Shown: positions 23,783 through 63,511, counted from the stretch's first letter. The stretch: 64,000 nucleotides of DNA from Candidatus Palauibacter poriticola (GCA_012270965.1 JAAXHJ010000082.1:20919-84918); one strand, 5' to 3'. The notes: generated by a model not told the origin, from the sequence alone. Numbers and translations: made by a program.

Positions 23783-23952
23783 CCTAACCGCCCGCCCGCT
23801 CCAGCGGCCAGCCGTCCGGGGCCTGCGTCAGCGGTCGGCACCAGCGGGCCAGCGCCAGCGGTCGGCGTCGGCGGACGTGAGCTTTGGGGGGGGGGGCGTC
23901 GGTGGGCGTGCGCCTGGGGCGGGCGTCGGCGTTCGAGCGCTTGGGGCCGGCG

Positions 23953-25089
23953 TCAGCGGTCGGCGTCCTCGCCCACGATTGTCACGTCAAAGCGGTCGAG
24001 CACAAGGTCGACCGGGTTCGCGATCGTGAGACGGCCGTCGCCGGCGAAGAGCAGCGCGACCGGCTTGCGGTCGTCCGGGCCTGCGTTCCCGTCACGGTCC
24101 AGATCGCGTGCCACGATGAGGGAGCCGGAATCGCCGCCCTTGCTGAAGTTGCAGCACACCATGATCTGACCGACAAAGCGGCCCACCTGCGACTCGGCCG
24201 ACCCGTAGGTCACGTTGATCGACGCGTTGACCGCTTCCACCTCCCCGACCGTGAGGCGCGTCGTCCGCCCGTACTTTTGGACCTGCAGCCCCGGCTTCGC
24301 CGCCATCGTCGTGCTGCGCGGCGACCCATAGCCCCCCACCGGCGTCTCCGGCAGCACCTCGTCGGTGCGCGCGATCGCCGCATCGATCCGGTTCGACGCG
24401 AAGGGCGACAAGACCACCGGCTCGAACGCCGCCAGCGTGGCGATCGCGTCCCCCGGGTCGGAGCCGCCATCCACGGGGCCCGGTTGTAGGAGGGTATCGC
24501 CCACGCGTCCCTCGCCGCCCGGCACGAACACGTGCCAGTTGCTGAGTGCGTACCGGCGCTCGCCATCGGTCACGACGGCGCCGATCGTGCCCGCCGTGGA
24601 GCGGGTGTGCCCCGTGGACACGCCCATGGGAACCGGCCGGTCGAAGCGCCCCGTGGGTACCGGCCCCCCGTCCGCCGCAACCGGAGCGGCGGGCTCCGGC
24701 GGAAGGATGCGGAACGGGCCGGCCGGCTCGACCGCGACCGGGAAGAGGCCGAGCGCCTCGGGGATGCCTTGAAGACCGGGGGACGCGGCGGGGTCGACGA
24801 AAACCTTGATCGTCGGCATCCCCGCGCCGGTGAGACCGATCCCCACGCCGACCACGCCGGGGAAGGAGAAGAGCATCGACTCGTTGGCGCTCTGCACCTG
24901 CATGGCGGCCGCCAGCAACTCTTGGGCGGAGGAACCGGGGGGAGGCAACGGCGGACGCGTCGGAAGCCGCGGCGGAGGGAGCGTCGGGGGCCGTGTGGGC
25001 CAGGACGTCAGCGTCCAGTGGATGCCGACCCCGACGCATGTGAGGGCCGCAATCGCGATGGCGAGAACCAGGTTCCGGCGCGGCGTCAT
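23953..25089 (-). CDS. Membrane-anchored S1 (chymotrypsin/streptogrisin-like) serine peptidase
   Basis: An N-terminal TM anchor and Pro-rich linker precede the catalytic residues: His in 'LSNWHV' and Ser in 'GDSGSLIV'. Confidence 0.8.
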   Translation of the reverse strand: MTPRRNLVLAIAIAALTCVGVGIHWTLTSWPTRPPTLPPPRLPTRPPLPPPGSSAQELLAAAMQVQSANESMLFSFPGVVGVGIGLTGAGMPTIKVFVDPAASPGLQGIPEALGLFPVAVEPAGPFRILPPEPAAPVAADGGPVPTGRFDRPVPMGVSTGHTRSTAGTIGAVVTDGERRYALSNWHVFVPGGEGRVGDTLLQPGPVDGGSDPGDAIATLAAFEPVVLSPFASNRIDAAIARTDEVLPETPVGGYGSPRSTTMAAKPGLQVQKYGRTTRLTVGEVEAVNASINVTYGSAESQVGRFVGQIMVCCNFSKGGDSGSLIVARDLDRDGNAGPDDRKPVALLFAGDGRLTIANPVDLVLDRFDVTIVGEDADR

Positions 25090-52203: not shown

Positions 52204-53766
52204 ATGAAGACCGTATCCGGAGTACTTGGCCTGATCCTCATCGCCGCCATCACGGTTCTGATCATCGGCGGTACCGACCGCAGCGAGGCCGGAGCCGCCG
52301 AGGCGCCGCCGGCCGAGCCGCGGGTCGAGGCGTTGCCGGCTGCGGCCCCCACGACCTCGGCCGTCGTGTCTCTCGTCTCGCCGGCCCCGCACTCGATCGA
52401 GGCCGGTCCGGAGTCGCCGGTCGAACTGGTGCTCGTGGAGCCGCTCGATCCGGGCGGGTTCGATCCGGCGGCGCTGTCCGTCTTCGGCCGCTGGAGCGGT
52501 GTGATGACTGGCTCCGTGCATCTATCGGACGATGGCCGGCGCATCCGCTTCGAACCCGGCGAAGCCTTCCACGCCGGCGAATCGGTCACGGCTTCGCTGC
52601 GCGCCGGGGAGAAACTCGCGGATGGCGGCGCCATGGAGACGGGTTTCGCGTGGAACTTCTGGATCCGCCCCCAGGCGGGCTCGCTCGACATGATCGACCG
52701 AGGCTCGCGGATCGTGCTCGACGACGGTGAGAAGCACGTCCAGCCATACGGGGCCTACGCCGGCGACTTCAACGGCGACGGCTATCCCGACATCGCGATC
52801 CCCAACGAAGTCACGGCGGACGTCCGCGTGATGTTCAACGACGGGAAGGGGGACTACAACGAATTCCGCGTCCTCGACATCCCCGGCGGGAGTTGGCCGA
52901 GCCCCAACGAGGGCGCGGACTTCAACGGCGACGGCCTCACCGACTTCGCGGTCGGGAACGCGGGGAACGATCTCGTGTCCGTCTTCCTCGCCGACGGGAA
53001 CGGCTGGTTCGAGCTGGGGAGCAACATCGAGTCCGGACGGAACGTCCGCGGCGTGTGCGTCGGCGACTTCGACCAGGACGGGTGGGCGGATTTGGCGGCG
53101 GTGAACATGTCCGTCGGACCTGAGGAATCGCGCGGCAACGTCGCGATGCTCCTCAACAACGCCGATGGCACCGGAGACCTGACGCGAACCTCGGAGATCG
53201 CCTCGCCGGGCCAGGGCGAGAAGACGTGCGCGGCGGCCGATGTGAACAACGACGGCCTGCCCGACCTGCTGGTCGGAGCCTACTTCACCGACGAAGTGCT
53301 CACCTACCTGGGAGACGGGCGCGGCAACTTGGAGTTGGGCACGCGGGTGCGCGCCGGCGGCAAGCCGTGGATGATCGTGGCGGGCGACGTGAACGGCGAC
53401 GGGAACGTGGACGTGATGTCCGCGAACCGTGAAGGGAACAACGTGGCCGTCCTCCTCGGCGATGGCGCGGGCGGCTTCGCGGATCCCGTCGAGTACGATA
53501 CGGGCGACTCGCCGCTGGCGGTCGACGTGGGCGACATCGACGGCGACGGCGATCTCGACGTCGTCACCAGCGACTTCGATGGCAACAGCTTCACCGTGCA
53601 TGAGAACGCCGGCGACGGCACGTTCGTGAACCCCCGGTCGTACGCGGCGAGCACGAACGGCTCGTGCGTCGTCATTCATGATCGCGACCTGGATGGGGAC
53701 CTCGACCTCACCGGCGTGGATGAGACGGACGACAAGATCTTCCTCCTGGAGAACCCCGGCCGGTGA
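52204..53766 (+). CDS. FG-GAP/VCBS repeat protein with N-terminal signal anchor
   Basis: A GGAGG RBS is present. 'FNGDGYPDIA', 'FNGDGLTDFA', 'DFDQDGWADL', 'DVNNDGLPDL', 'DVNGDGNVDV', 'DIDGDGDLDV' and 'DRDLDGDLDL' make seven FG-GAP blades. Confidence 0.75.
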   Translation: MKTVSGVLGLILIAAITVLIIGGTDRSEAGAAEAPPAEPRVEALPAAAPTTSAVVSLVSPAPHSIEAGPESPVELVLVEPLDPGGFDPAALSVFGRWSGVMTGSVHLSDDGRRIRFEPGEAFHAGESVTASLRAGEKLADGGAMETGFAWNFWIRPQAGSLDMIDRGSRIVLDDGEKHVQPYGAYAGDFNGDGYPDIAIPNEVTADVRVMFNDGKGDYNEFRVLDIPGGSWPSPNEGADFNGDGLTDFAVGNAGNDLVSVFLADGNGWFELGSNIESGRNVRGVCVGDFDQDGWADLAAVNMSVGPEESRGNVAMLLNNADGTGDLTRTSEIASPGQGEKTCAAADVNNDGLPDLLVGAYFTDEVLTYLGDGRGNLELGTRVRAGGKPWMIVAGDVNGDGNVDVMSANREGNNVAVLLGDGAGGFADPVEYDTGDSPLAVDVGDIDGDGDLDVVTSDFDGNSFTVHENAGDGTFVNPRSYAASTNGSCVVIHDRDLDGDLDLTGVDETDDKIFLLENPGR

Positions 53767-53813
53767 CCAGGAAGTTGAAGTCCCGGAAGTCAAAGTCCCG
53801 GAAGTCAAAGTCC

Positions 53814-54206
53814 ATGAGGTCGAAGGAGGAGTGGCGGGAGGCGCTCCCCGAGCAGGCCTACAAGGTCCTGTTCGAGCAAGCGACCGAACGCGCGGGGACG
53901 AGTCCGCTGAACGAGGAGAAGCGTCCCGGCACCTTCCAGTGCGCGGCGTGCGGAGAGGCGCTGTTCACGACCGACATGAAGTACGACAGCGGCACGGGGT
54001 GGCCGAGCTTCTTCGAGAGCCTCCCCGGCACGCTGGAGACAAAGCGCGACTTCAAGCTCATCCTGCCGCGCACCGAATACCACTGCGCCCGCTGCGGCGG
54101 ACACCACGGCCACGTCTTCAACGACGGGCCGGAGCCGACGGGCAAACGGTACTGCAACAACGGCGTCGCCCTCCGGTTCATCCCGGACGACGACCCGGAC
54201 GGCTGA
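53814..54206 (+). CDS. msrB: Peptide-methionine (R)-S-oxide reductase MsrB
   Basis: 'CAACGEALF', 'GWPSF', 'HCARCGGHHGHVFNDGP' and 'RYCNNG' are the SelR zinc and catalytic motifs. A GTG at 53763 that overlaps the upstream stop would add a Lys/Ser-rich N-terminus 'MTRKLKSRKSKSRKSKS'. Confidence 0.9.
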   Translation: MRSKEEWREALPEQAYKVLFEQATERAGTSPLNEEKRPGTFQCAACGEALFTTDMKYDSGTGWPSFFESLPGTLETKRDFKLILPRTEYHCARCGGHHGHVFNDGPEPTGKRYCNNGVALRFIPDDDPDG

Positions 54207-54238
54207 TCCGACATTCGGCGGGGGCGCTAACGGCGGGA

Positions 54239-56482
54239 GTGTTCGGCCTGCTCGCCGCGGTGCCCGGAGCGAAGGGCCAGCTTCCGGGCTCCAGCGGTGC
54301 CTGCGAAGCGCGGGCCGCGGAGACTCGCGCCGCCGGGGCGGCGGGTGCGCTCACGGACACGCCGTCGGGCCGGGTGGCGGCCGACCTCCATTGCATCAGT
54401 CTCTTCTCCACGGCGCGGGGCGGCGACGCGGAGGGGTTCGTCGAACTCGGCCGGGTGCCGTCGCCGTTCGGCGTGACGGTGACGCCGTCCGGCCACCACG
54501 TCCGCGCGTTGACCGTCCACATCGAGGGCCTCCCGCCGCCCTCCAGCCTAGGGCCATACACGGCCTACATGGCGTGGGCGACGCCGCTCGAACTGGCGCC
54601 CGTGGTGCCGCTGGGCCCGGTCGGGAACGGCGAGCACCGGCTGGGGCGCGTCGCGTTCAACAAGTTCCTCGTGATGGTCAGCGCGGAGGTGTCGGCCGGC
54701 GTGGCGACGCGCGAGGGACCGCTCGTGCTGCGCGGGCGCTCGCCGTCCGCGCTCATGGAGGCGCACGATCTCCTGGCCCTCGCGCCGTCGGCGACGCGGC
54801 GCGCGGCCGAGCGGGCCCCGAGCCGCTGGGAGGCGCCGCCCGCGTACCCCGGCATCGCCATGCTGCCCGGCGTGATGGACCTCGAACCGCGTGCCCGCCC
54901 CGCAAGCCTCGAAAGCGCGGCCGACCCGCCCCCGTGGGAGTCGCTCCCCGAAGCCGCCGAGCGTCGGCTCGTCGATCTCCCCGACGGTGGCACGCTCGAC
55001 CTCGAGGCGACCATCGTCCGGCGCGAAATCGACGGCCGCCGCCTCGCCATGCTCGCCTACAACGGCCAGCATCCCGGACCCCTCATCCGGGTTCCGGAGA
55101 AATCCACCATCTTCGTGAACTTCACGAACCGCACGCCGTACCCGACGGCGGTGCACTGGCACGGCATCCGGCTCGCCAACGAGTTCGACGGCGTCCCCGG
55201 CCTCACCCAGGATCCCGTCGCCCCCGGCGAGTCCTTCCAGTACCGGATCTTCTTCCGGGACCCGGGCATCTACTGGTACCACCCGCACCACCGCGAGGAC
55301 GTGCAGCAGGAACTCGGCCTGTACGGGAACCTCCTCGTCGACCCCGCCGACGCCGGCTACTACGGGCCCGCGACCCGCGAGGAAGTCCTCATGCTCGACG
55401 ACATCCTCTTGGACGAGGAAGGGCTCGTGGACTTCGGGGACGAATCGGCGAACTACATGCTGATGGGCCGGTTCGGGAACCTGGCCCTCGTCAACGGCGA
55501 GCCGGGTTACGAACTGGAAGTCGACTGCGGAGAGGTCGTCCGCTTCCACCTCACGAACGCCTCCAACACGCGCACCTTCAACCTCTCCTTCGTGGACACG
55601 GAACGCGGCGGGCTTCCCGATCCCGACCAGCGCGTCGCCGATCGCGATGCGGCGGACCCGAATCGTCTTCCCCTCAAAGTCGTCGCGTCGGACGTGGGCC
55701 GCTTCGAGCGCGAGGAGTGGGTCCGAAGCGTGGTCCTGGCTCCCGCGGAGCGCTACGTGATCGACGTCCGCTTCGACCGCCCCGGCCGGCACGCGCTCGT
55801 CAACCACGTACAGGGGATCAACCACCGGCAGGGCGTCTTCCGCGCCGAACTCCGGACGCTGGGGAGCGTGACGGTCGCGCCCCGGGACGCGGCCCATGCC
55901 CACGGAGACGCGTTCGAGACGTTGCGCGAACATGCGGACGTCATCGCGGACATCGACCGCTACCGGCCGCGCTTCGGCGACGAGCCCGACCACGAACTCG
56001 TGATGACGCTCGAGACCGAAGATCTCCCGCTCCCCATCGAACGCTCCATGGCCTACGACTGGGTCTACTTCAATCCCGTGGAATGGACCGGGACCATGCC
56101 GCGCATGAACTGGGCCACGACGGGGAGCGAGATCCGCTGGATCCTCAGGGAAACGGCCACCGGGCGGGAAAACGAGGAGATCGAGTGGGATTTCATGGTC
56201 GGGGACGTGGTGAAGATCCGCGTCATCAACGACCGGGGCGCCTTCCACGCGATGCAGCACCCGCTCCACATCCACGGGCAGCGCTTCCTCGTACTGTCGC
56301 AGAACGGCGTGCCGAACTCGAACCTGGTGTGGAAGGACACGGTCCTGCTGCCGGCCGCATCGACGACGGACATCCTGCTGGAGCTGTCGAACCCCGGCCG
56401 CTGGATGATCCACTGCCACATCGCGGAACACCTCGAAGCCGGGATGAGGATGGTGATGAACGTCACCGAGGCCCCGCCGTGA
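54239..56482 (+). CDS. Multicopper oxidase (laccase-like, three cupredoxin domains) with a ~250 aa N-terminal extension
   Basis: The copper-ligand motifs 'HWHG', 'WYHPH', 'HPLHIHG' and 'HCHIAEH' are present. The start is uncertain; the GTG at 54239 is the first candidate after the msrB stop. Confidence 0.8.
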   Translation: MFGLLAAVPGAKGQLPGSSGACEARAAETRAAGAAGALTDTPSGRVAADLHCISLFSTARGGDAEGFVELGRVPSPFGVTVTPSGHHVRALTVHIEGLPPPSSLGPYTAYMAWATPLELAPVVPLGPVGNGEHRLGRVAFNKFLVMVSAEVSAGVATREGPLVLRGRSPSALMEAHDLLALAPSATRRAAERAPSRWEAPPAYPGIAMLPGVMDLEPRARPASLESAADPPPWESLPEAAERRLVDLPDGGTLDLEATIVRREIDGRRLAMLAYNGQHPGPLIRVPEKSTIFVNFTNRTPYPTAVHWHGIRLANEFDGVPGLTQDPVAPGESFQYRIFFRDPGIYWYHPHHREDVQQELGLYGNLLVDPADAGYYGPATREEVLMLDDILLDEEGLVDFGDESANYMLMGRFGNLALVNGEPGYELEVDCGEVVRFHLTNASNTRTFNLSFVDTERGGLPDPDQRVADRDAADPNRLPLKVVASDVGRFEREEWVRSVVLAPAERYVIDVRFDRPGRHALVNHVQGINHRQGVFRAELRTLGSVTVAPRDAAHAHGDAFETLREHADVIADIDRYRPRFGDEPDHELVMTLETEDLPLPIERSMAYDWVYFNPVEWTGTMPRMNWATTGSEIRWILRETATGRENEEIEWDFMVGDVVKIRVINDRGAFHAMQHPLHIHGQRFLVLSQNGVPNSNLVWKDTVLLPAASTTDILLELSNPGRWMIHCHIAEHLEAGMRMVMNVTEAPP

Positions 56483-56763
56483 CCCCGACCGGGCCAGCAC
56501 GTACCGAGACGGCGATTTCCCTGCCGGACGAACTGTTCGCCTCGGCCGACGCCCTCGCCATGCGGCTGGGAGTCTCCCGAAGCGAACTCTACGCGACCGC
56601 GGTGGCCGAGTACGTGGCGAAACACCGCAGCGAGGAGGTCACCGCACGGCTGAATGCCGTGTACGCCGACCTCGCCAGCGGAGTCGATCCCGGCCTCCGC
56701 CGGGCACAGGTCCGGTCCGTCGCCGCCTCCGCCACGCCCGAAATGGAAATACCAGTCAAATAA
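56479..56763 (+). CDS. Ribbon-helix-helix (CopG/Arc/MetJ-like) DNA-binding protein
   Basis: The GTG start overlaps the oxidase stop (GTGA). 'ISLPDELFASADALAMRLGVSRSELYATAVAEYVA' fits the RHH beta-strand plus two helices. Confidence 0.45.
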   Translation: MTPTGPARTETAISLPDELFASADALAMRLGVSRSELYATAVAEYVAKHRSEEVTARLNAVYADLASGVDPGLRRAQVRSVAASATPEMEIPVK

Positions 56764-56916
56764 ACATCTCGTGACATGTCAACGAGTTACGAAGATTGCG
56801 CCCGATCCGGCGGATTCCCAGTGAAATAAACGGCGGTGGTTTCGGAGCCTGCGGCGACCCCCGAACGACCGATCCCAACCGGCATGCGGACCGCCGAGTG
56901 AGCGGCGCGATCTCGC

Positions 56917-57395
56917 TCACGACCCCGCCCAAAACGGCAGGTACCGCCGCGCCCGGGGACCCGTCTCGGGATCCGCGACCACGATCAGCCCCTTGTTCAC
57001 GGTATCGGCGAGGATGCGGGATGCCATCGAGGCGTTCCTGTCGACGATCCCGAAAAACGCACCCGCAGCGAGAAGTTCGTCATGGGCTGCTGGGTCACGT
57101 AACGAAGGCAGGCATGCATGTAACACGCGTGAAGCCGCTCTTGGCGGTCCATCTCGCGCAGCCGCTTGTGGGCGAACAGGATGGCACGCGTGAAACCCGG
57201 TGGCCGCTCGAAGACGGGGGCTGGAAGCACGTAGCTCTCCACGGCGTGAACGACCTTGTCGATGCCGGTACCGCGCTCCTCGCAGATGTTCAGGCGGCGC
57301 ATGTTCAGAGCCCCGTGCGATCCTCCCCTCGCCCTGTCGGCGTCCCCCACACGGGGTCTCCGCGTGGCCTGCGGCACGCCGGATCGCCGCCACAT
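56917..57395 (-). pseudogene. Decayed C-terminal remnant of an HATPase_c_4-type (RecG-C-terminal-like) regulator
   Basis: Frame A carries 'LNICEERGTGIDKVVHAVESYVLPAPVFE...'. Frame B carries the tail 'IVDRNASMASRILADTVNKGLIVVADPETG...YLPFWA'. There is no N-terminal ATPase/AlbA part, and the two pieces are split by a frameshift. Confidence 0.4.
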
Positions 57396-57410
57396 GCACA
57401 GGCCGCGGGC

Positions 57411-57475
57411 GATACCGGCGGCGAGCGATACCCGGCGGCGAGCAATACCCGGCGGCGAGCGATGCCGGTGGGTAT
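57411..57475. repeat. Tandem 17-bp repeats (GATACCCGGCGGCGAGC, about 3.5 copies)
   Basis: The intergenic sequence reads 'gataccggcggcgagc gatacccggcggcgagc aatacccggcggcgagc gatgccggtgggtatcg'. It lies upstream of the amidohydrolase gene. Confidence 0.7.
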
Positions 57476-57599
57476 CGGGCCGGCGGGGCGTGGCGGGAGG
57501 CGGTGCCGTTGCCCGTCGTAGCGGCGAGGAGCATGATGCTGGAGCCGTCGAACCCCGGCCCGTGAATGATCCACGGCCACGTCGCGAAAGGACGCCTCG

Positions 57600-59051
57600 A
57601 TGATCGCCGCCCGTCTCCGCCGCACCCCGCTTCTCGCTCTCGTCGCGACCATCGCGTGCCTCGCGGCCGGCTTGCCCTCCGGCGCTCGGGCGCAGGAGGA
57701 ACCGATGGAGAGCTTCATCGCGGTGCAGGCGCCGACGGTCGCGCTCACCAACGTCAAGGTGATCGACGGAACCGGCGGGCCCGCCCGCGACGGCCAGACG
57801 ATCGTCATCCGGGACGGCCGCATCGCGGACATCGGGCCCGCGGAAGAGGTGGCGGACCGGATCCGGAACGCGCGGGTCTTGGATCTAGCGGGCCATACCG
57901 TCATTCCGGGTCTCATCGGGCTCCACAACCACAGCTACTACACGGGCGGGAACGGACGGGCGGCGCAGCTCTCCTTCTCGGGGTCTCGGCTCTACCTCGC
58001 GTCCGGCGTGACGACGATCCGGACGACGGGCGCGCGGGCACCGTACGAAGAGATCAACCTCAAGCGCGCGATCGACGAGGGCCGCGCCATCGGTCCCAAC
58101 ATGTTCACGACCGGTCCCTACCTTACGGGGCAGGAGGGCTCGCGGACGATGGCCCAGCTCGAGGGGCCGGAGCAGGCGCGGCGGCTCGTCCGCTACTGGG
58201 CCGAGGAGGGCGTGCCTTGGTTCAAGGCGTACACCTGGATCAGCCGCGAGGAACTCGGGGCGGCGATCGACGAGGCGCACCGCCACGGCGTGAAGGTGAC
58301 GGCCCACCTCTGCTCGGTCGGATACCGGGAGGCGGTGGCGCTCGGGATCGACAACCTCGAGCACGGCCTGCTTGCCAACAGCGAGTACTTCCCGGGGAAG
58401 GAGCCGGACGACTGCCCGTCGGGGTTCCGGAACGGCTACGCCGACCTCGACGTGAACTCCGAGGAGGTGCGGGAAACGTTCCGCATGATGATCGAGAACG
58501 ACGTCGCGATGACCTCCACGCTGGCCGTGTACGAGATCTCGGTGCCGGGACGGGGTCCGATCGACGAGCGCGTCTACGACATCCTCGCGCCCGAAATCGC
58601 GACGGAGGTGCGGGAGATCGCGGACCTGCGGCGCAACGCGACCCTCGATTCCGGGATCGGGATCCACCCCGACGTTTACCGGAAGGCGCTCGAGTACGAG
58701 CACGCCTTCGTGCGGGCGGGAGGGACGCTCGCGGCCGGGGTCGACCCGACGGGGTACGGCGCGGCGCCCCCGGGTTACGGCGACCAGAAGAACTACGAAC
58801 TGCTGCTCGAGGCCGGGTTCACGCCCGCCGAGGTCGTCCGGATCATGAGCGCGAACGGCGCCAGGGTGCTCGGTATCGACGACGAAACGGGGACGATCGA
58901 AGTCGGCAAGGTCGCGGACCTCGTCGTGCTGGAGGGAGACCCGGAGGCGGACCGCCACATCCGAGAGACCCGCATCGTGTTCAAGGGCGGCGTGGGATGG
59001 GACGCCCCCAAGCTCATCGAGTCGATCCGCGGCATCGTAGGCATCCGCTGA
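57600..59051 (+). CDS. Amidohydrolase-family secreted metallo-hydrolase
   Basis: A signal peptide precedes 'IPGLIGLHNHSYY', 'VKVTAHLCS' and 'VGKVADLVVLEGDP', which is the PF01979-type fold. Confidence 0.85.
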   Translation: MIAARLRRTPLLALVATIACLAAGLPSGARAQEEPMESFIAVQAPTVALTNVKVIDGTGGPARDGQTIVIRDGRIADIGPAEEVADRIRNARVLDLAGHTVIPGLIGLHNHSYYTGGNGRAAQLSFSGSRLYLASGVTTIRTTGARAPYEEINLKRAIDEGRAIGPNMFTTGPYLTGQEGSRTMAQLEGPEQARRLVRYWAEEGVPWFKAYTWISREELGAAIDEAHRHGVKVTAHLCSVGYREAVALGIDNLEHGLLANSEYFPGKEPDDCPSGFRNGYADLDVNSEEVRETFRMMIENDVAMTSTLAVYEISVPGRGPIDERVYDILAPEIATEVREIADLRRNATLDSGIGIHPDVYRKALEYEHAFVRAGGTLAAGVDPTGYGAAPPGYGDQKNYELLLEAGFTPAEVVRIMSANGARVLGIDDETGTIEVGKVADLVVLEGDPEADRHIRETRIVFKGGVGWDAPKLIESIRGIVGIR

Positions 59052-59174
59052 TGACCAGGAGTGGAGACACGGCACCAACGACGTTCATCGAGGACGTGAG
59101 CCCGTTTCTGGCGGCTTGCCCCGGTCCGCCCTTGGCTGCGAAGGGACTGCGGATCGCCGCCCTGCAACCGGTCG

Positions 59175-59573
59175 ATGGTATCCCCGGTTTGTGTATCAAT
59201 ACTCGTAACATCATTGGTGTCAATCCATTACACAAAACATGGGGGGGGGGGGCGATATCTTCGGACGGTCATCGACATAGCCGCACGGCTGAATTGCCGA
59301 CCGCAATACTTGTCGGATACGGCGAGACGGCACAACTACCACTATTCGCACGCCCTTCGGTGGATCCGGTTCCTGCACTTGGTCGCGCTGAAGGCGGAGG
59401 GCTTCCCGACCGACCGGACGCTGTGGCCGCTGGGTTTCAGCGACCCGGGGGGAGTGACCCGCTTCGTCAAGGCGCTCCATGGCCGCACGCTGAGCGAACT
59501 CCCGCCGGACCCCCTCCGCCGTTGGGTTCCGCGCGGCATCGTCGATGTGTTTCTGGGCGGCGCCGGTTCGTGA
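59175..59573 (+). CDS. Stand-alone or truncated AraC-family HTH domain protein containing a G12 homopolymer
   Basis: 'TVIDIAARLNCRPQYLSDTARRHNYHYSHALRWIRFLHLVALKAEGFPTDRTLWPLGFSDPGGVTRFVKALHGRTLSEL' is a complete AraC-type dual HTH. No sensor domain is present. The Gly4 codons lie inside the G12 run at 59241-59252, and the 5' region is unusually GC-poor. Confidence 0.45.
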   Translation: MVSPVCVSILVTSLVSIHYTKHGGGGRYLRTVIDIAARLNCRPQYLSDTARRHNYHYSHALRWIRFLHLVALKAEGFPTDRTLWPLGFSDPGGVTRFVKALHGRTLSELPPDPLRRWVPRGIVDVFLGGAGS

Positions 59574-59878
59574 CGCATAGCCGCGTGTCTCGGGACGTAC
59601 CGGGGTGAATTGCGCCCCCGGTTCTTTGACATCTGTTCAGCACGACCGGGGTTTGCCGAGAAGGGAGTGCCGTCGATTCGGCGCGCGTGCGAAATCGAAA
59701 CCGGCGAAACAACAAGGCGCGACACCCGCATCCTACCCAGCTTCCCTTCCTACCATGTGCTGCGCCGTTTTGGCGCACTACGTCAAACGTCAGCGGTGCG
59801 ACGAACTCCTCCGTCGGGCGGGCCAGGGGGGGCGGATCGTGTCGATGGCGCTGTCTCACGAACCGCACGGGAGGGAAA

Positions 59879-60463
59879 ATGGCAAAACGGTTTTCACTTC
59901 ACAGTTTGGTTGCCGCACTAGCGGCAATCTCGCTGGTCTCCGTGGCTTGCGCCGATTCCACCCCCCAGGGGCCAGGCGCGTTCGAAGAAGAGCCTACTTT
60001 CGTGACGGCACCTCTGATCGGCGGTGTGGCTTGCGAAGCTCCAAGCGAGCCGGGGGCGGGACCGATGGCCGGTTGCTTCTGGGAGGGACTGGCGACGGCC
60101 GCCGCTCTGGCGAAATGTGGAGGTTCCGTTTCGACGTTGCTGGCGGTTGTCGGAGGTACTGGGGGGGCGGCGGCACCCGGCGCAGTCGCAGCCGCAGTGT
60201 GGGTGCAAGCGTGGTGCGTTGGCGCAGCCGCCGCTGTTGGCAAATTCTTGCAATGCCTCGGGTTCGCGGACGTGGGCTCTCCTCCCAGTGGAGCTGGCCC
60301 CTTGACGGACAATCACCCGCTACGGATGTTGCAAATCCGCGCTCAGGAGTATGTGTCCGAGTACGACGAAATCGCGGACCGTTTCAACGAGGCTGTTGAA
60401 GAATACAACTTGGGTGTTGAGAAACTGGAGCTGATCGGTGATGCCCCAATGATTGTGCGTTAG
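59879..60463 (+). CDS. Cys-rich, Gly/Ala-rich lipoprotein, hypothetical
   Basis: A GGAGGG RBS precedes the lipoprotein signal 'MAKRFSLHSLVAALAAISLVSVACADS'. Six further Cys residues follow, with a C-terminal acidic helix. Confidence 0.5.
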   Translation: MAKRFSLHSLVAALAAISLVSVACADSTPQGPGAFEEEPTFVTAPLIGGVACEAPSEPGAGPMAGCFWEGLATAAALAKCGGSVSTLLAVVGGTGGAAAPGAVAAAVWVQAWCVGAAAAVGKFLQCLGFADVGSPPSGAGPLTDNHPLRMLQIRAQEYVSEYDEIADRFNEAVEEYNLGVEKLELIGDAPMIVR

Positions 60464-60468
60464 CGAAG

Positions 60469-60741
60469 ATGGCGATGATATCGTGGGACATGTTGGCGAT
60501 AGGGATGGGACTGCTGTCTCTGGTCGAAGTCGCCGTGTTTTTTGGGGCGTGGCGATGGCCTTGGAAGCCGTCCGGCCGCAGTATTTTCCTGTCGGCGTTC
60601 GCCACGTTCTGCGCGGCGATGGCGGCGAATCCGTCTTGGGTTGTGGTTGTGGAGCCGACGGTGTGGGTTGCTCTGCTTGTCGTGAGTGTCGTTATGTGGA
60701 CACGCGTGCTGCGCCACGCACGCAAGCACGCCGGCAAGTAG
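60469..60741 (+). CDS. Small 3-TM membrane protein, hypothetical
   Basis: The ATG lies 6 nt after the lipoprotein stop. The 90 aa protein has three hydrophobic helices. Confidence 0.45.
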   Translation: MAMISWDMLAIGMGLLSLVEVAVFFGAWRWPWKPSGRSIFLSAFATFCAAMAANPSWVVVVEPTVWVALLVVSVVMWTRVLRHARKHAGK

Positions 60742-60756
60742 GGTGGCGGCACCCGG

Positions 60757-60935
60757 GTGCCAGGGATCGGCGACGAAACGGGTACGATCAAGGTCGGCAA
60801 GGTCGCGGCTCTCCTCGAGGGAGACCCTGAGGCGGACGGCCCCATCCGCGCGACGCGCATCGTGTTCAAGGAAGGCGGTGGTTGGGGCGTGCGGAAGCTG
60901 ATCGACTCGGTTCGAGGCATTGTCGGCATCCGGTA
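60757..60935 (+). pseudogene. Diverged duplicate of the 3' end (last ~59 codons) of an amidohydrolase gene
   Basis: It encodes 'GIGDETGTIKVGKVAALLEGDPEADGPIRATRIVFKEGGGWGVRKLIDSVRGIVGIR*'. Compare the C-terminus of the 57600..59051 product, 'GIDDETGTIEVGKVADLVVLEGDPEADRHIRETRIVFKGGVGWDAPKLIESIRGIVGIR*', which is about 80% identical at the nucleotide level. No upstream gene body is present. Confidence 0.6.
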
Positions 60936-62061
60936 GCCGCAATGGCCCATGCCCTTCCTCGACGCTCTCGCGGCTGATCCTGGGTGGACTGCTCCTTTTG
61001 GGCTGCCAGCCGCAAGATGAGGCGGAACCAGACATCGGTCGACGGGCCGAGACCGTAGCCGAGGAGTCTCGGATCGCGAAAGGGCCCGCCCGTACTCTCT
61101 CCCCCCGAACCATGCTGGCCATCCCCGACACGACGCCGGGGTCGGAGTGGCTGAACGTCGTTCTGGACATGCGGTACGATGCGGCGACGGGCACGCTTTT
61201 CACGCTGGACAGGATGGGCGGGAAAGTGGCCGAAGTGGACACGCTGGGGACGTTGGTCCGCACCTACGGCGGGGGGCGCGGCCAAGGGCCGATGAGGTGC
61301 GCGACTTGACCGATTACAGCTACTCACGGGCCTCAGTGGTCTTCCTCGACCGGGGCAACACGAAGGTGCTGGTCTTTCCGCGCCGGGGGTCGCGCGTGAC
61401 GCAGTTCCCGGTCCCGGCGGCCTACCGCAGCATCGCCTTGGCGGCGGATGAGACGGTATTGCTGGTGCCGGGTACGGGCGCTCATGCGGTGGACGTGTAT
61501 TCGGCCGCGGGCGACCCCGTGGGCGGCATCGGCGCCTTCGAGGAACTCCCCGTGCGCTGCGCTCCCAACGAGGACTGCGAGCGGACTCGCCGCCAGTGTA
61601 TGGGCTGCGTCGTGCGGGTGCTCGGGGACGCCGTCCTGGTCATGAACACGGAGCTGGATCTGATGACCGTATTCGCCGGCGAAGGACGTCCGGCGCGCTC
61701 GCTGGACCTTCGGGCGCGCCTCGCGCGGCTGCGGGAGTGGATCGCGACGGACGAGCCCCTGTTGGCCCGCATGCAGGAACGCGCCGACGCGCGCTCCAGT
61801 GGAGCGACGGTGCCCGTCGTTCTCAAGAGCTACTTCAACAATGTCCACGCCTCCCCGGATGGGCGGCTAGCTTTCTCGGTCAAGCCCGCCAGCCCGGTGC
61901 TCCAGTCGTCGGGCTACCAGTATTCGCTGCTGGACGTCGAGACTCTGGAGGTGGAGAGCGTCGGGTTCAGTGACCATTCGCACGGCCTTCGTGCGACGGG
62001 CTGGCAGACCGTGTTCGGGGTCCAGCGGGGCACCTACGCGATCTACCGCTTTCAAGACTGA
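60920..62061 (+). pseudogene. Lipoprotein gene (beta-propeller-like C-terminal part) interrupted by a frameshift at a G6 tract
   Basis: Frame A (60920..61309) encodes the lipoprotein signal 'LSRLILGGLLLLGC' and the N-terminus. Frame C (to 62061) encodes a roughly 260 aa C-terminal body. Adding one G to the run at 61271-61276 fuses the two into a single ~380 aa ORF. Confidence 0.5.
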
Positions 62062-62287
62062 CCGGCCTCGAGTTCGCCGGCTCCCACTCCGCGACTTCGC
62101 TGGCTCCCACTTCGTCGATTCACTGGAGCCCAAGGCCCAAGCCCGTCCGCATCTTGGCGAGTTGCTCAAGGTATGTCGCGGAACAAGCGCGTGCGTACCT
62201 TCCACGTTTCGAGCGACCGTTTCGATCGGAGTCGGGGTGGGTTTGATCGTGGGATGGCGGATGTTCGTGGATCGCGGCAGAGGCCGG

Positions 62288-63511
62288 GGGATGCCGGCGC
62301 GGCGACGCGGCGTGCGTGGTGGGGCCGTGTGGCTGGTGTGCGTCTGGGTGGCCGCGGGAGCGGTCGTTGCTCCCCCTTCCGCCACGGCCCAGATCACGGC
62401 GGCCGATTCCGCGGCCGTCCTCGTCGCGACCGCCACCGACATCGAGGCGCGCGGCGAGCTTGAGGTCGCCCGATGGCTGTACGAAGAGGTCATCCGGCGC
62501 TACCCCGGCACGCCGGGCGCGGAGTTGGCCCGGACTCGGCTGGAAGGGTTGGGTGCGAGGGCGGGCCCGATGTCGGCGAGGCTGACGCCGGGCGTCGCTC
62601 CGCAGGACCGGCGCGGCGATACGGAGTTTCGGGTCTGGTCGACGCTCTACGGGCTGTGGCTGGGCGTCGCGGTGCCGATCTTGGCGGACGCTGAGGGTTC
62701 CGAGCCGTACGGTGCCGGTCTTCTGCTCGGCGGGCCGGTGGGTTACTTGGCCGGCCGTGTTTTTTTGCGCTCCCTCACGGTGGGACGGGCGCGCACGATC
62801 AGTTGGGCCGGCACGTGGGGCACTTGGCAGGGCGTGGGCTGGGCGCACGCGCTGGAGCTGGGTGCCGATCCGGGCTGCAAGCACTGCGAACCGGGGGAGA
62901 AGGAGGTCGTGACCGCGGCACTGGCCGGCGGACTGGCCGGTATCGTCGCGAGCGGCCTCCTCTCGCGCGACATCACTGAGGGTACCGCCGCGTCGATGTA
63001 TCTGGGCAGCCTGTGGGGGACGTGGTTCGGCCTCGGGGGAGCGGCCGCGCTGGATCTGGACGACGAGGCGATGTGGGCGACCACGCTGCTCGTGGGCAAC
63101 GCGGGCTTGGTCGCCGGAGCCCTGGCCGGGAGCAGGCTCGACCTGTCCTCCCGCCGCGCGCACATGAGCAGCCTCGGAGGTCTGATCGGCGGTTTCGGCG
63201 GGGTCGGCATCGTGCTCATCGCGAAGCCGCGCGGCACCGGCGCCGAGTTCGGGATTCCGCTTGCGACGAGTCTCGCGGGTCTGGGCCTGGGGGTTCTGCT
63301 GACCTCGCAGGACGACGGCGCGCCGGAAGGAGAGTCGAGCGCGGCCCGGACGCGAGCCGGTTCGTTGTCGCCGGCCCTCTTGAACTGGTCGAATGGAGCA
63401 CGATTCGAGGTCGGCCTGCCGATGCCGTTCCCGACGACCGTCCTCGATCCGGGACGGAACGGACGGCGGCACACCGCTTGGAACGTCCCGCTCCTCCGCC
63501 TTCGCTTCTGA
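62288..63511 (+). CDS. Hypothetical secreted/membrane protein with glycine-zipper-like segments
   Basis: A signal peptide 'MPARRRGVRGGAVWLVCVWVAAGAVVAPPSATAQ' is followed by a helical N-terminal region. Several Gly-rich hydrophobic segments follow ('GLLLGGPVGYLAG', 'LAGGLAGIVASGLL', 'GLGGAAAL'). The protein ends in '...LRLRF'. The start was chosen among in-frame Met codons and is uncertain. Confidence 0.45.
   Translation, partial: GMPARRRGVRGGAVWLVCVWVAAGAVVAPPSATAQITAADSAAVLVATATDIEARGELEVARWLYEEVIRRYPGTPGAELARTRLEGLGARAGPMSARLTPGVAPQDRRGDTEFRVWSTLYGLWLGVAVPILADAEGSEPYGAGLLLGGPVGYLAGRVFLRSLTVGRARTISWAGTWGTWQGVGWAHALELGADPGCKHCEPGEKEVVTAALAGGLAGIVASGLLSRDITEGTAASMYLGSLWGTWFGLGGAAALDLDDEAMWATTLLVGNAGLVAGALAGSRLDLSSRRAHMSSLGGLIGGFGGVGIVLIAKPRGTGAEFGIPLATSLAGLGLGVLLTSQDDGAPEGESSAARTRAGSLSPALLNWSNGARFEVGLPMPFPTTVLDPGRNGRRHTAWNVPLLRLRF

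What the first reader, a model, noticed from the sequence alone, without database searches (positions are those of the whole stretch)
59051..60935. A ~1.7 kb insert between an amidohydrolase gene and a diverged copy of its own 3' end
The last ~59 codons of the amidohydrolase (57600..59051) recur at 60757..60935 as a diverged copy. They are roughly 80% identical at the nucleotide level and retain the reading frame and stop. The intervening DNA has a GC-poor stretch (59190-59240) and a G12 run. It carries a sensor-less AraC-HTH ORF, a secreted Cys-rich lipoprotein and an adjacent 3-TM mini-protein. The paired lipoprotein and membrane protein have a toxin/immunity-like or bacteriocin/immunity-like layout. 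This looks like an old insertion or recombination scar that displaced a paralogous gene end, carrying a small cargo module of unknown function.
Basis: partly seen in the sequence, partly recalled or inferred. Interest (0 to 1): 0.7.

Follow-up and report, generated by a model that had tools for sequence, protein, structure and literature searches.

The report
Decaying gene-end relic beside inserted cargo
A leftover, decaying copy of the end of an amidohydrolase gene marks where about 3.2 kb of mixed, partly broken foreign genes were inserted between two tightly packed core genes of an uncultured marine Gemmatimonadota bacterium; this is an ordinary recombination scar, though it carries one very rare two-gene membrane module of unknown function.

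Summary
Window 60747-60936 (b2) is a copy of the amidohydrolase 3' end, 58856-59051 (b1): 80% identical, one in-frame 6-nt deletion, E=6e-43. It appears in at least four independent assemblies. The organism is a Candidatus Palauibacter. In 12 of about 20 related loci the amidohydrolase stop is followed within ~13 nt by the next core gene (down2). The extra DNA in the window is therefore larger than reported, 59052-62290 (3.24 kb). It is a mosaic of five parts: a small HTH_18 regulator gene broken at the G12 run (intact with G11 in another assembly); an orphan pair of a Cys-rich lipoprotein and a 3-TM protein; the b2 relic; a frameshifted beta-propeller lipoprotein pseudogene; and a spacer. b2 is a Palauibacter-clade allele that is decaying neutrally, not a paralogue. 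Other species carry different cargo at the same spot. Similar relics flank inserts at the two neighbouring gene junctions and, independently, in another genome. No recombinase is present. The best reading is a recombination scar at a gene-flux hotspot between tightly coupled genes. It has the same topology as e14/icd-icdC but apparently arose without an integrase. Nothing supports or excludes a toxin/immunity role for the lipoprotein pair. Interest is low to moderate.

The parts
57600..59051 (+). Intact amidohydrolase gene (483 aa), a core gene of a conserved cluster: multicopper oxidase, amidohydrolase, down2, SDR
   Evidence: Pfam Amidohydro_1 E=6e-24 and Amidohydro_3. Orthologues at 88-93% nt identity in 18 Palauibacter loci.
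58856..59051 (+). b1: the functional 3' end of the amidohydrolase, which is the duplicated segment
   Evidence: 88-92% identical to orthologous ends, like the rest of the gene. Codon positions 1+2 are 96-99% conserved.
59051..59573 (+). Small HTH_18 (AraC-like) regulator gene. Its ATG overlaps the amidohydrolase stop (ATGA). It is frameshifted in this window at the poly-G run and is an intact 173-aa gene in assembly L001.
   Evidence: HTH_18 at 26-27 bits, below the Pfam cut-off of 33.6. Homologues of 160-177 aa at ~61% identity cover 92-100% of the query, including the part upstream of the G-run. The family recurs at this hotspot in L084 and L085/L086.
59241..59252 (+). Poly-G tract (G12) that breaks the HTH_18 reading frame
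   Evidence: G12 in the window and L002 (that contig begins at the run), G11 in L001, and G9 at the same position in the 61%-identical homologue of L083.
59879..60463 (+). Cys-rich predicted lipoprotein (194 aa). It has a signal peptide and lipobox-like VSVAC, a disordered linker, a helical hairpin with a conserved C-x13-C ... C-x12-C pattern, and a C-terminal helix.
   Evidence: Only two relatives among 1.84e9 representatives: P0010 at 47% and P0011 at 38%. AF2 core pLDDT ~80 with helices 62-93, 100-127 and 148-176. Cys spacing conserved. GC3 0.63. A GGGAGGG Shine-Dalgarno-like motif sits upstream of the ATG (sequence).
60469..60741 (+). Small membrane protein (90 aa), the partner of the lipoprotein, starting 6 nt after its stop.
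   Evidence: Homologous small ORFs follow both lipoprotein relatives with a 4-nt overlap (31% and 43% identity, E~4e-11).
60747..60936 (+). b2: a 5'-truncated, decaying relic of an amidohydrolase 3' end
   Evidence: 80% identical to b1, and 80-84% to Palauibacter orthologues against 74% or less to more distant ones. It has 21 b2-specific changes, 2/10/9 by codon position, and a 2-codon deletion in ADLVVLEGDP. It shares 0 of 5 b1-specific states.
60748..60761 (.). Perfect 14-nt palindrome GGCACCCGGGTGCC at the 5' edge of b2, the junction with the cargo
   Evidence: Orthologues lack it, and there are 9 such palindromes in the 64 kb window. Its significance is unknown.
60920..62061 (+). down1: a beta-propeller-type lipoprotein pseudogene (-1 frameshift near 61288-61291). 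Its only in-frame start (TTG at 60920) lies inside b2.
   Evidence: Adding one base restores a 380-aa ORF. Intact 371-383-aa homologues at 63-73% identity cover 96-97%. It is distantly related to the DUF5128-type genes at the same spot in L011.
62062..62290 (.). Spacer with a 23-nt tandem repeat (62066-62111), forming the end of the window-specific DNA
   Evidence: Homology to relatives resumes at about 62375, inside down2.
62291..63511 (+). down2: a core membrane/TPR-like protein (406 aa). In 'empty' relatives it starts ~13 nt after the amidohydrolase stop.
57487..57589 (+). a2: a relic of the multicopper-oxidase 3' end (containing a stop codon), directly upstream of the amidohydrolase start. 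This is the analogous scar at the neighbouring junction.
   Evidence: 76% identical to 56326-56428, E=5e-16. It is shared at ~89% with L003, L005 and L006.
56479..57486 (.). Cargo of the neighbouring junction: an RHH antitoxin-like ORF (+), a HATPase_c_4 fragment (56997-57395, minus strand) and a 17-nt x4 tandem repeat (57399-57466)
   Evidence: Relatives carry an RHH plus PemK toxin pair here.

Best explanation
The feature is a recombination scar at a gene-flux hotspot. In Candidatus Palauibacter, the genes for a multicopper oxidase, an amidohydrolase, a membrane protein (down2) and an SDR form a conserved cluster with spacers of only ~13-15 nt. In the lineage of this window, foreign DNA entered at the amidohydrolase|down2 junction. 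I infer that the left crossover was homologous and lay inside the amidohydrolase gene, so the incoming DNA supplied, or re-created, a complete 3' end (b1). I infer that the right join was illegitimate and fell ~190 nt before the resident stop codon. That left the old 3' end (b2) stranded distal to the cargo. This could have happened by Campbell-type single-crossover integration of a circular fragment, by homology-facilitated illegitimate recombination, or by tandem joining of two haplotypes followed by erosion. Because the junction is so tight, only insertions that duplicate a gene end keep both flanking genes intact, and this would explain why relics accompany inserts here. b2 has since decayed neutrally and has no function of its own. 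The 3.24-kb islet is a mosaic built in more than one step: an HTH_18 regulator gene that recurs at this hotspot, an orphan lipoprotein + small membrane protein operon, the relic, and a beta-propeller lipoprotein pseudogene. Most of it is degenerating. SHOWN: the repeat; its absence from relatives; the variable cargo; the decay pattern; the frameshifts; the lack of any recombinase; and that the lipoprotein/TM pair is conserved as a pair. INFERRED: the order of events, the recombination mechanism, and any function of the cargo.
For: The repeat is real and significant and is present in 4 assemblies. Twelve related loci have the amidohydrolase stop ~13 nt from the down2 start. The same spot holds Fur+MerC in L003, two DUF5128 genes in L011, an ABC transporter pair in L017, and an ~8 kb island with an HTH_18 homologue and IS110 in L084. 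b2 is a Palauibacter-clade allele with 21 private changes at codon positions 2/10/9, whereas in the orthologous (functional) ends positions 1+2 are 96-99% identical to b1 and position 3 only 68-85%; b2 also has a 2-codon deletion in a conserved strand. b2 shares 0 of 5 b1-private states, so the event is old. An independent relic with different breakpoints exists in L084, where the intact gene is followed by an L016-type empty-site spacer and the relic by the L003-type Fur/MerC arrangement, i.e. two haplotypes joined. Analogous relics occur at the MCO|amidohydrolase junction (window, L003, L005, L006) and at the down2|SDR junction (L017); only 25 such repeat pairs exist in 1.55 Mb of related loci. 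No recombinase domain was found in any island ORF on either strand, and there are no tRNA or Rfam features. Cargo GC3 is 0.62-0.79 against 0.84-0.92 for core genes.
Against: No donor haplotype was found, that is, an amidohydrolase directly followed by the HTH_18 gene, or a b2-type end followed by an intact down1. No clear recombination breakpoint is visible inside the intact gene. The event cannot be polarised: whether b1 or b2 was the resident end is unresolved because the phylogeny is star-like. No microhomology of 8 nt or more was detected between junction neighbourhoods. A decayed integrase-borne element cannot be excluded, because 11% neutral decay would erase an att core. The 14-nt palindrome at the b2 edge is unexplained.
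Confidence: 0.6

Rival explanations
1. This is an e14/icd-like site-specific integration. An integrase-bearing element targeted the 3' end of the amidohydrolase gene and carried its own replacement 3' end, so that b1 is element-borne and b2 is the displaced host end. The element later lost its integrase and most of its genes, leaving a 1.7-3.2 kb remnant.
For: The topology is the same as icd - e14 - icdC in E. coli K-12 (PMC13626634, read). The cargo has foreign composition. The first cargo gene's ATG overlaps the stop of the intact gene, as expected if that junction is native to a donor element.
Against: No recombinase domain is present in any ORF of the islet or in the rest of the 18-kb contig L001. 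There are no identical cores at the repeat boundaries. The independent relic in L084 has different breakpoints. Scars at the two neighbouring junctions carry unrelated cargo and also lack an integrase. b1 is as similar to orthologues as the rest of the gene, so it does not look element-borne. Neither cargo family is found on viral contigs.
Confidence: 0.15
2. This is merodiploid or tandem-copy erosion. A second, complete allele of the amidohydrolase (with its own downstream genes) once lay beside the resident gene, and b2 is what deletions have left of it.
For: L084's relic retains an internal piece (aa 244-300) as well as the C-terminus (aa 411-482), as expected from a longer copy eroded by deletions. 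b2 abuts, and overlaps the start of, a different downstream gene (down1), as if it had its own native junction.
Against: None of about 20 Palauibacter loci has a full second copy. b2 is no closer to b1 than to other species' alleles, and nothing upstream of 60747 resembles the gene. down1's closest homologues sit at a different locus with no amidohydrolase relic beside them.
Confidence: 0.17
3. b2 is retained for a function. It might provide the promoter, RBS and start codon of down1, or encode a 59-aa mini-protein, or the palindrome at its edge might act as a terminator or recombination site.
For: The only in-frame start codon of down1 (TTG at 60920) lies inside b2. The frame and the stop are retained. 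A 14-nt perfect palindrome lies at the 5' edge.
Against: down1 is itself frameshifted in all assemblies. More than half of the b2-private changes (12 of 21) fall at codon positions 1 and 2, and a conserved strand is deleted. An open 59-codon frame is unremarkable at 66-69% GC. No promoter-like site was found.
Confidence: 0.04
4. The arrangement is an assembly or binning artefact that joins two strains' versions of the locus.
For: The source is a metagenome. One short-read contig (L002) breaks exactly at the poly-G run.
Against: The same junctions (b1/cargo, cargo/b2, b2/down1) are contiguous and base-identical in three to four independently assembled samples.
Confidence: 0.01

Closest known systems
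e14 cryptic prophage (and phage 21) in the icd gene of E. coli K-12: icd - prophage - icdC pseudogene
   Same: An intact gene whose 3' end is followed by inserted DNA, and then by a 5'-truncated copy of the same 3' end that keeps its frame and stop. The duplicate is a by-product of the insertion and not an independent gene (PMC13626634; Hill et al. 1989 as cited there).
   Different: e14 is a ~15 kb element with its own integrase, excises at a defined att core, and its two ends are nearly identical. Here the insert is 3.2 kb, no recombinase or att core is detectable, the copies are 20% diverged, and independent events at the same gene have different breakpoints.
Chromosomal integration hotspots or 'islets' between conserved core genes, filled by homologous recombination in flanking genes; homology-facilitated illegitimate recombination; Campbell-type insertion-duplication (established concepts, cited from my own knowledge and not checked in papers here)
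   Same: The same interval between the same core genes holds different cargo in different species and is empty in most. The cargo is compositionally atypical and there is no dedicated recombinase. Partial duplications of the anchor gene are the known by-product of one-sided homologous integration.
   Different: The hotspot here lies inside an operon-like cluster with 13-15 nt spacers. All three junctions of that cluster show relic-flanked inserts in one lineage or another, which is denser than the usual picture. The mechanism is inferred, not demonstrated.
Small disulfide-stabilised helical-hairpin proteins (twin CX9C/CHCH-type hairpins), class II bacteriocin plus small multi-TM immunity protein pairs, and glycine-zipper lipoproteins such as SlyB (resemblances recalled from knowledge)
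   Same: A small secreted or lipid-anchored protein with an Ala/Gly-rich hydrophobic helical hairpin bracketed by two Cys pairs, followed by a translationally coupled small membrane protein.
   Different: There is no sequence or fold match to any such family. The spacing is C-x13-C / C-x12-C. No export, processing or regulatory genes typical of bacteriocin loci are nearby. This is a lead only.
AraC/XylS-type HTH_18 regulators
   Same: The C-terminal ~75 residues match Pfam HTH_18 weakly, and homologues carry precomputed PF12833 hits.
   Different: The protein is only 173 aa and its score (26-27 bits) is below the Pfam cut-off. The N-terminal ~60 residues form a conserved block of unknown type rather than a known sensor domain. 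In this window the gene is frameshifted.

Membership tests
Gene-fragment pseudogene (insertion relic) | Homologous to part of a functional gene but truncated, lacking the 5' part and its own start context | tested here: met
   Homology starts abruptly at 60747, 6 nt after the stop of the preceding gene. Nothing upstream matches the amidohydrolase.
Gene-fragment pseudogene (insertion relic) | Relaxed constraint relative to functional orthologues | tested here: met
   The 21 private changes are distributed 2/10/9 over codon positions, and codon positions 1+2 are 87-90% identical to functional ends, against 96-99% among those ends. There is a 2-codon deletion in the conserved ADLVVLEGDP strand.
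Site-specific integrative element at a gene 3' end (e14/phage 21 type) | Tyrosine or serine recombinase gene within or next to the element | tested here: not met
   Pfam scans of all sizeable ORFs on both strands of 59052-62493 found no recombinase, and none is called on the 18-kb contig L001.
Site-specific integrative element at a gene 3' end (e14/phage 21 type) | Identical att core at the start of both copies of the duplicated segment | tested here: inconclusive
   The 5' edges differ (CGGCGCCAGGGTGCT vs CGGCACCCGGGTGCC), and the longest identical runs lie in the interior. About 11% decay could have erased a core.
Site-specific integrative element at a gene 3' end (e14/phage 21 type) | The same breakpoint recurs in independent insertions into the same gene | tested here: not met
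   The L084 relic has different boundaries, including an internal piece at aa 244-300 that the window's relic lacks, and different neighbours.
Chromosomal gene-flux hotspot between core genes | The same interval between orthologous core genes is empty in some genomes and holds unrelated cargo in others | tested here: met
   12 loci are empty. Fur+MerC, DUF5128 genes, an ABC transporter, an IS110-containing island and the window's islet occupy the same interval in others.
AraC/XylS family (Pfam HTH_18, PF12833) | Score at or above the Pfam gathering threshold for the HTH_18 domain | tested here: not met
   26.4-27.2 bits against a cut-off of 33.6. Some homologues carry precomputed PF12833 hits, so the protein is a divergent relative at best.
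Bacterial lipoprotein | N-terminal signal peptide ending in a lipobox with an invariant Cys | tested here: inconclusive
   By inspection only: MAKRFSLHSLVAALAAISLVSVA|C, a hydrophobic segment at residues 4-29. P0011 has LAAAC. No dedicated predictor was available.
Known toxin-immunity, bacteriocin or anti-phage defence families | Sequence or fold match of either protein to a described family | tested here: not met
   No Pfam, NCBIfam or PADLOC hits and only noise in PHROGs. Foldseek against the PDB gave a best E of 0.55, generic helical bundles.
DUF5128-type 6-bladed beta-propeller lipoproteins (down1) | Pfam PF17170 match | tested here: inconclusive
   No Pfam hit for the window fragment. There is weak similarity (28% over 79 aa, E=5e-5) around the GRGQGPxE motif to the L011 gene, which has weak or significant DUF5128 hits.
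Tandem paralogue decay | Relatives with a complete second copy at the relic's position | tested here: not met
   None in about 20 Palauibacter loci. L084 has only a two-piece fragment.

The most novel reading that the evidence does not exclude
Two novel readings are not excluded. (a) The relic-flanked inserts at all three 13-15-nt junctions of this four-gene cluster (window, L003/L005/L006, L017, L084) may reflect a specific, recombinase-independent or trans-acting insertion process in Palauibacter that homes to the ends of tightly coupled genes and regenerates them, rather than generic recombination plus selection. (b) The lipoprotein + small membrane protein pair, with a twin C-x13-C/C-x12-C hairpin and only 3 occurrences among ~15 billion proteins, may be a new kind of envelope effector/immunity module whose neighbouring HTH_18 regulator is switched on and off by slippage of the poly-G tract (G9, G11 and G12 variants observed).
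Probability: 0.1. Interest if true: 0.6.

Novelty: new member of a known kind. Interest (0 to 1): 0.27.

Why it matters
On its own this is a routine genomic scar. Its value is descriptive. First, it documents, in an uncultured sponge and marine Gemmatimonadota genus, a very compact gene cluster whose three junctions repeatedly accept small cargo, often leaving datable relics of the flanking genes. This could be used to study gene flux and recombination in organisms that cannot be cultured. Second, it flags an extremely rare, conserved two-gene membrane module and a small HTH_18 family carrying a poly-G tract, both uncharacterised. Third, it warns annotators that 59175-59573, 60757-60936 and 60920-62061 are broken or relic ORFs and not genes.

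Tried and rejected
- Assembly artefact: rejected, because the junctions are identical in 4 assemblies.
- Paralogous origin of b2: rejected, because b2 groups with Palauibacter orthologues at 80-84% and with more distant clades at 74% or less.
- Recent in-lineage duplication: rejected, because b2 shares 0 of 5 b1-private states.
- Recombination breakpoint inside the intact gene: a sliding-window comparison with 18 orthologues gave no clear switch of nearest relative.
- att-like repeats or microhomology at the junctions: none of 8 nt or more. No trace of the empty-site spacer in the window.
- RNA elements, tRNAs and promoters: none found. One terminator-like hairpin lies after the HTH_18 gene, but the count is not above the shuffled expectation.
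- Hidden recombinase remnants in alternative frames: none.
- Function of the lipoprotein: word-index search found only the protein itself; exhaustive HMMER found two distant relatives; four HMM libraries were negative; the AF2 model has moderate confidence and Foldseek gives only generic helical bundles.
- Phage association of the cargo: none on viral contigs.
- More instances in JGI metagenome contigs: none for the lipoprotein family or for a b2-specific 23-mer.
- Population variant lacking the lipoprotein module: the fourth contig with down1 is just a shorter fragment of the same arrangement.
- Donor haplotype for b2 + down1: down1 homologues lie elsewhere with no amidohydrolase relic beside them.

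Full report
OBSERVATION. The last ~63 codons of the amidohydrolase gene (57600-59051) recur downstream. Window 58856-59051 (b1) aligns with 60747-60936 (b2) at 80% identity, with one in-frame 6-nt deletion, and both end in a stop codon. Against the whole 64-kb window, b2 matches b1 with E=6e-43 and nothing else below E=0.1. The arrangement is base-identical in independently assembled metagenomes: L001/L092 from ERZ27298222, L002 from ERZ23495086 and L093 from ERZ27298220. It is therefore not an assembly chimera.

ORGANISM AND CONSERVED BACKBONE. A scan of one genome per species found 80 related loci. The closest, with the amidohydrolase at 90-96% amino-acid and 88-93% nucleotide identity, are Candidatus Palauibacter MAGs from sponges and seawater. 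Mapping window segments onto them shows a conserved cluster: multicopper oxidase (MCO), amidohydrolase, a membrane/TPR-like protein (down2, window 62291-63511) and an SDR. In 12 loci the down2 start lies ~13 nt after the amidohydrolase stop. The MCO-to-amidohydrolase spacer is similarly ~15 nt in the loci that lack cargo there. The window-specific DNA is therefore 59052-62290 (3.24 kb), about twice what the finding described. It includes b2 and the next gene.

ANATOMY OF THE ISLET.
(1) 59051-59573 is a small HTH_18-like regulator gene. In L001 the G-run is G11 and the gene is an intact 173-aa ORF whose ATG overlaps the amidohydrolase stop. In the window (G12) it is frameshifted, and this produced the apparent 132-aa 'sensor-less' ORF. 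Homologues of 160-177 aa at ~61% identity cover the whole 173 aa, including a conserved N-terminal block upstream of the G-run. This family recurs at the same hotspot in other genomes, L084 and L085/L086. Its HTH_18 score is below Pfam's cut-off.
(2) 59879-60463 and 60469-60741 are a Cys-rich predicted lipoprotein and a 90-aa membrane protein. The lipoprotein has only two relatives among 1.84 billion cluster representatives (47% and 38% identity). Both relatives are followed, with a 4-nt overlap, by a homologous small membrane protein (31-43% identity). The pair is therefore a conserved but extremely rare module. The family core is a helical hairpin with invariant C-x13-C and C-x12-C pairs plus a C-terminal helix. 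No HMM library or fold search links it to any known family. It is absent from viral contigs and from JGI metagenome contigs.
(3) 60747-60936 is the b2 relic.
(4) 60920-62061 (down1) is a single lipoprotein gene with a -1 frameshift near 61290. Adding one base restores 380 aa, and intact homologues of 371-383 aa at 63-73% identity cover 96-97% of it. It is distantly related to the DUF5128-type beta-propeller genes that occupy the same spot in L011. Its closest homologues lie at another locus in L089 and L090, and in L091 one lies in this hotspot but after down2.
(5) 62062-62290 is a spacer with a 23-nt tandem repeat.
The cargo genes have GC3 of 0.62-0.79, against 0.84-0.92 for the flanking core genes. 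No ORF on either strand has a recombinase domain. There are no tRNA, Rfam or promoter signals.

NATURE OF b2. b2 is 80-84% identical to the ends of Palauibacter orthologues and 74% or less to more distant Gemmatimonadota. It is thus an allele from within the genus and not a paralogue. Functional ends differ from one another almost only at third codon positions: positions 1+2 are 96-99% identical and position 3 is 68-85% identical. b2 has lost ~10% at positions 1+2. Its 21 private substitutions fall 2/10/9 on codon positions 1/2/3. It has also lost two codons of the conserved ADLVVLEGDP strand. That pattern indicates neutral decay. b2 shares none of the five substitutions private to the window's b1. 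Either the split is about as old as this lineage's terminal branch, or the two ends come from different Palauibacter lineages. The near star-like relationships cannot decide between these.

THE LOCUS IS A HOTSPOT, AND RELICS RECUR. At the amidohydrolase|down2 junction other species carry Fur+MerC (L003), two DUF5128 genes (L011), an ABC-transporter pair (L017), or an ~8-kb island (L084) with DUF5128 genes, an HTH_18 homologue and an IS110 transposase. L084 also has its own independent amidohydrolase relic. It has two pieces: aa 244-300 at 88% and aa 411-482 at 98% identity to its own gene. The intact gene there is followed by an L016-type empty-site spacer, and the relic is followed by the L003-type Fur/MerC arrangement, so two haplotypes are joined. 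At the MCO|amidohydrolase junction the window, L003, L005 and L006 carry a ~100-nt relic of the MCO 3' end (window 57487-57589, with an internal stop). It lies distal to cargo that in relatives is an RHH-PemK toxin-antitoxin pair. At the down2|SDR junction L017 has fragments of the SDR 5' end, then a 2.6-kb insert, then the intact SDR. A self-comparison of 1.55 Mb of related loci found only 25 diverged direct-repeat pairs. In the Palauibacter loci carrying this cluster nearly all of them lie at or within these junction inserts.

INTERPRETATION. The simplest account is that b2 is a by-product of insertion at a very tight gene junction. Incoming DNA recombined homologously within the amidohydrolase gene on one side and joined illegitimately on the other, ~190 nt before the resident stop. 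One complete gene end (b1) was kept and the other (b2) was stranded. Equivalently, a circular fragment carrying a gene piece integrated by a single crossover, or two haplotypes were joined in tandem and then eroded. With 13-15-nt spacers, insertions that do not duplicate an end would destroy a flanking gene, so selection would enrich for relic-bearing insertions. These mechanistic steps are inferred. What is shown is the topology, the decay, the variability across species, the recurrence with different breakpoints, and the absence of a recombinase.

The closest textbook parallel is icd - e14 - icdC in E. coli K-12 (PMC13626634). An e14-like integrase model fails the tests that could be run: there is no recombinase, no shared breakpoint and no recognisable core. 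A long-decayed element cannot be strictly excluded.

CARGO FUNCTION. The toxin/immunity or bacteriocin/immunity reading rests only on layout: a small secreted Cys-rich protein followed by a small membrane protein. Nothing found here supports it or excludes it. My best guess is a lipid-anchored, disulfide-stapled helical-hairpin protein acting at the envelope together with its membrane partner. I would give an antagonism/immunity role perhaps one chance in four.

VERDICT. The finding is a real and correctly noticed feature, with an ordinary explanation: a pseudogene relic marking an old, multi-step insertion in a gene-flux hotspot, with much of the inserted DNA itself degenerating. It is a new member of a known kind. 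The residual interest lies in three things: the unusually dense, relic-rich insertion pattern at all three junctions of one compact cluster; the very rare lipoprotein/TM module; and the variable poly-G tract in the adjacent regulator gene.

Noticed in passing
window 56326-56428 vs 57487-57589 (and the cargo at 56479-57486): A second scar of the same type lies one junction upstream. A ~100-nt relic of the multicopper-oxidase 3' end (HCH copper-site motif, now with a stop codon) sits just before the amidohydrolase start. It lies distal to an RHH antitoxin-like ORF and a minus-strand HATPase_c_4 fragment. Relatives have an RHH-PemK pair here, and the relic is shared with L003, L005 and L006.
   Followed up: partly
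window 59241-59252; L001 10891-10901; L002 1-12; L083 ~8199-8207: The poly-G tract inside the HTH_18 gene varies. It is G12 in the window and in L002, whose contig begins at the run; G11 in L001, where the gene is intact; and G9 at the same position in a 61%-identical homologue. This could be slipped-strand phase variation or a homopolymer sequencing error.
   Followed up: partly
window 23886-23896: This is the only other long homopolymer in the window (G11). It lies near a pair of 57-nt direct repeats (23813-23869 and 23911-23967). It was not examined.
   Followed up: no
window 60748-60761: A perfect 14-nt palindrome, GGCACCCGGGTGCC, lies exactly at the junction between the cargo and b2. It was created by b2-private substitutions and is absent from all orthologous ends. 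There are 9 palindromes of this length in the 64 kb window.
   Followed up: partly
window 57399-57466 and 62066-62111: Short tandem repeats sit next to relic and island boundaries: a 17-nt unit repeated 4 times just upstream of the MCO relic, and a 23-nt unit repeated twice just after the down1 stop.
   Followed up: no
L084 8906-10352 (ERZ25068633 ctg159398): An IS110-family transposase gene lies ~125 nt from an independent, internally deleted amidohydrolase relic in the same hotspot. Whether the IS created that breakpoint is unknown. No Rfam family matched the region.
   Followed up: partly
L017 14044-14273 and 16769-17301: Fragments of the SDR gene's 5' end lie directly after down2, followed by a 2.6-kb insert with a HEAT-repeat ORF and then the intact SDR gene. 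This is a mirror-image relic at the third junction of the cluster.
   Followed up: partly
L088 8001-12034 (ERZ23495130 scaffold_41): The most distant lipoprotein + small-TM pair lies convergent to two amidohydrolase-family genes, one of them 24% identical to the window's enzyme. This may be coincidence or a weak functional link between the module and amidohydrolases.
   Followed up: no
window 53678-56482: The longest ORF for the multicopper oxidase is 934 aa, but gene callers on the identical contig start it later (747 aa). The N-terminal ~190 codons of the long ORF are probably not coding.
   Followed up: no
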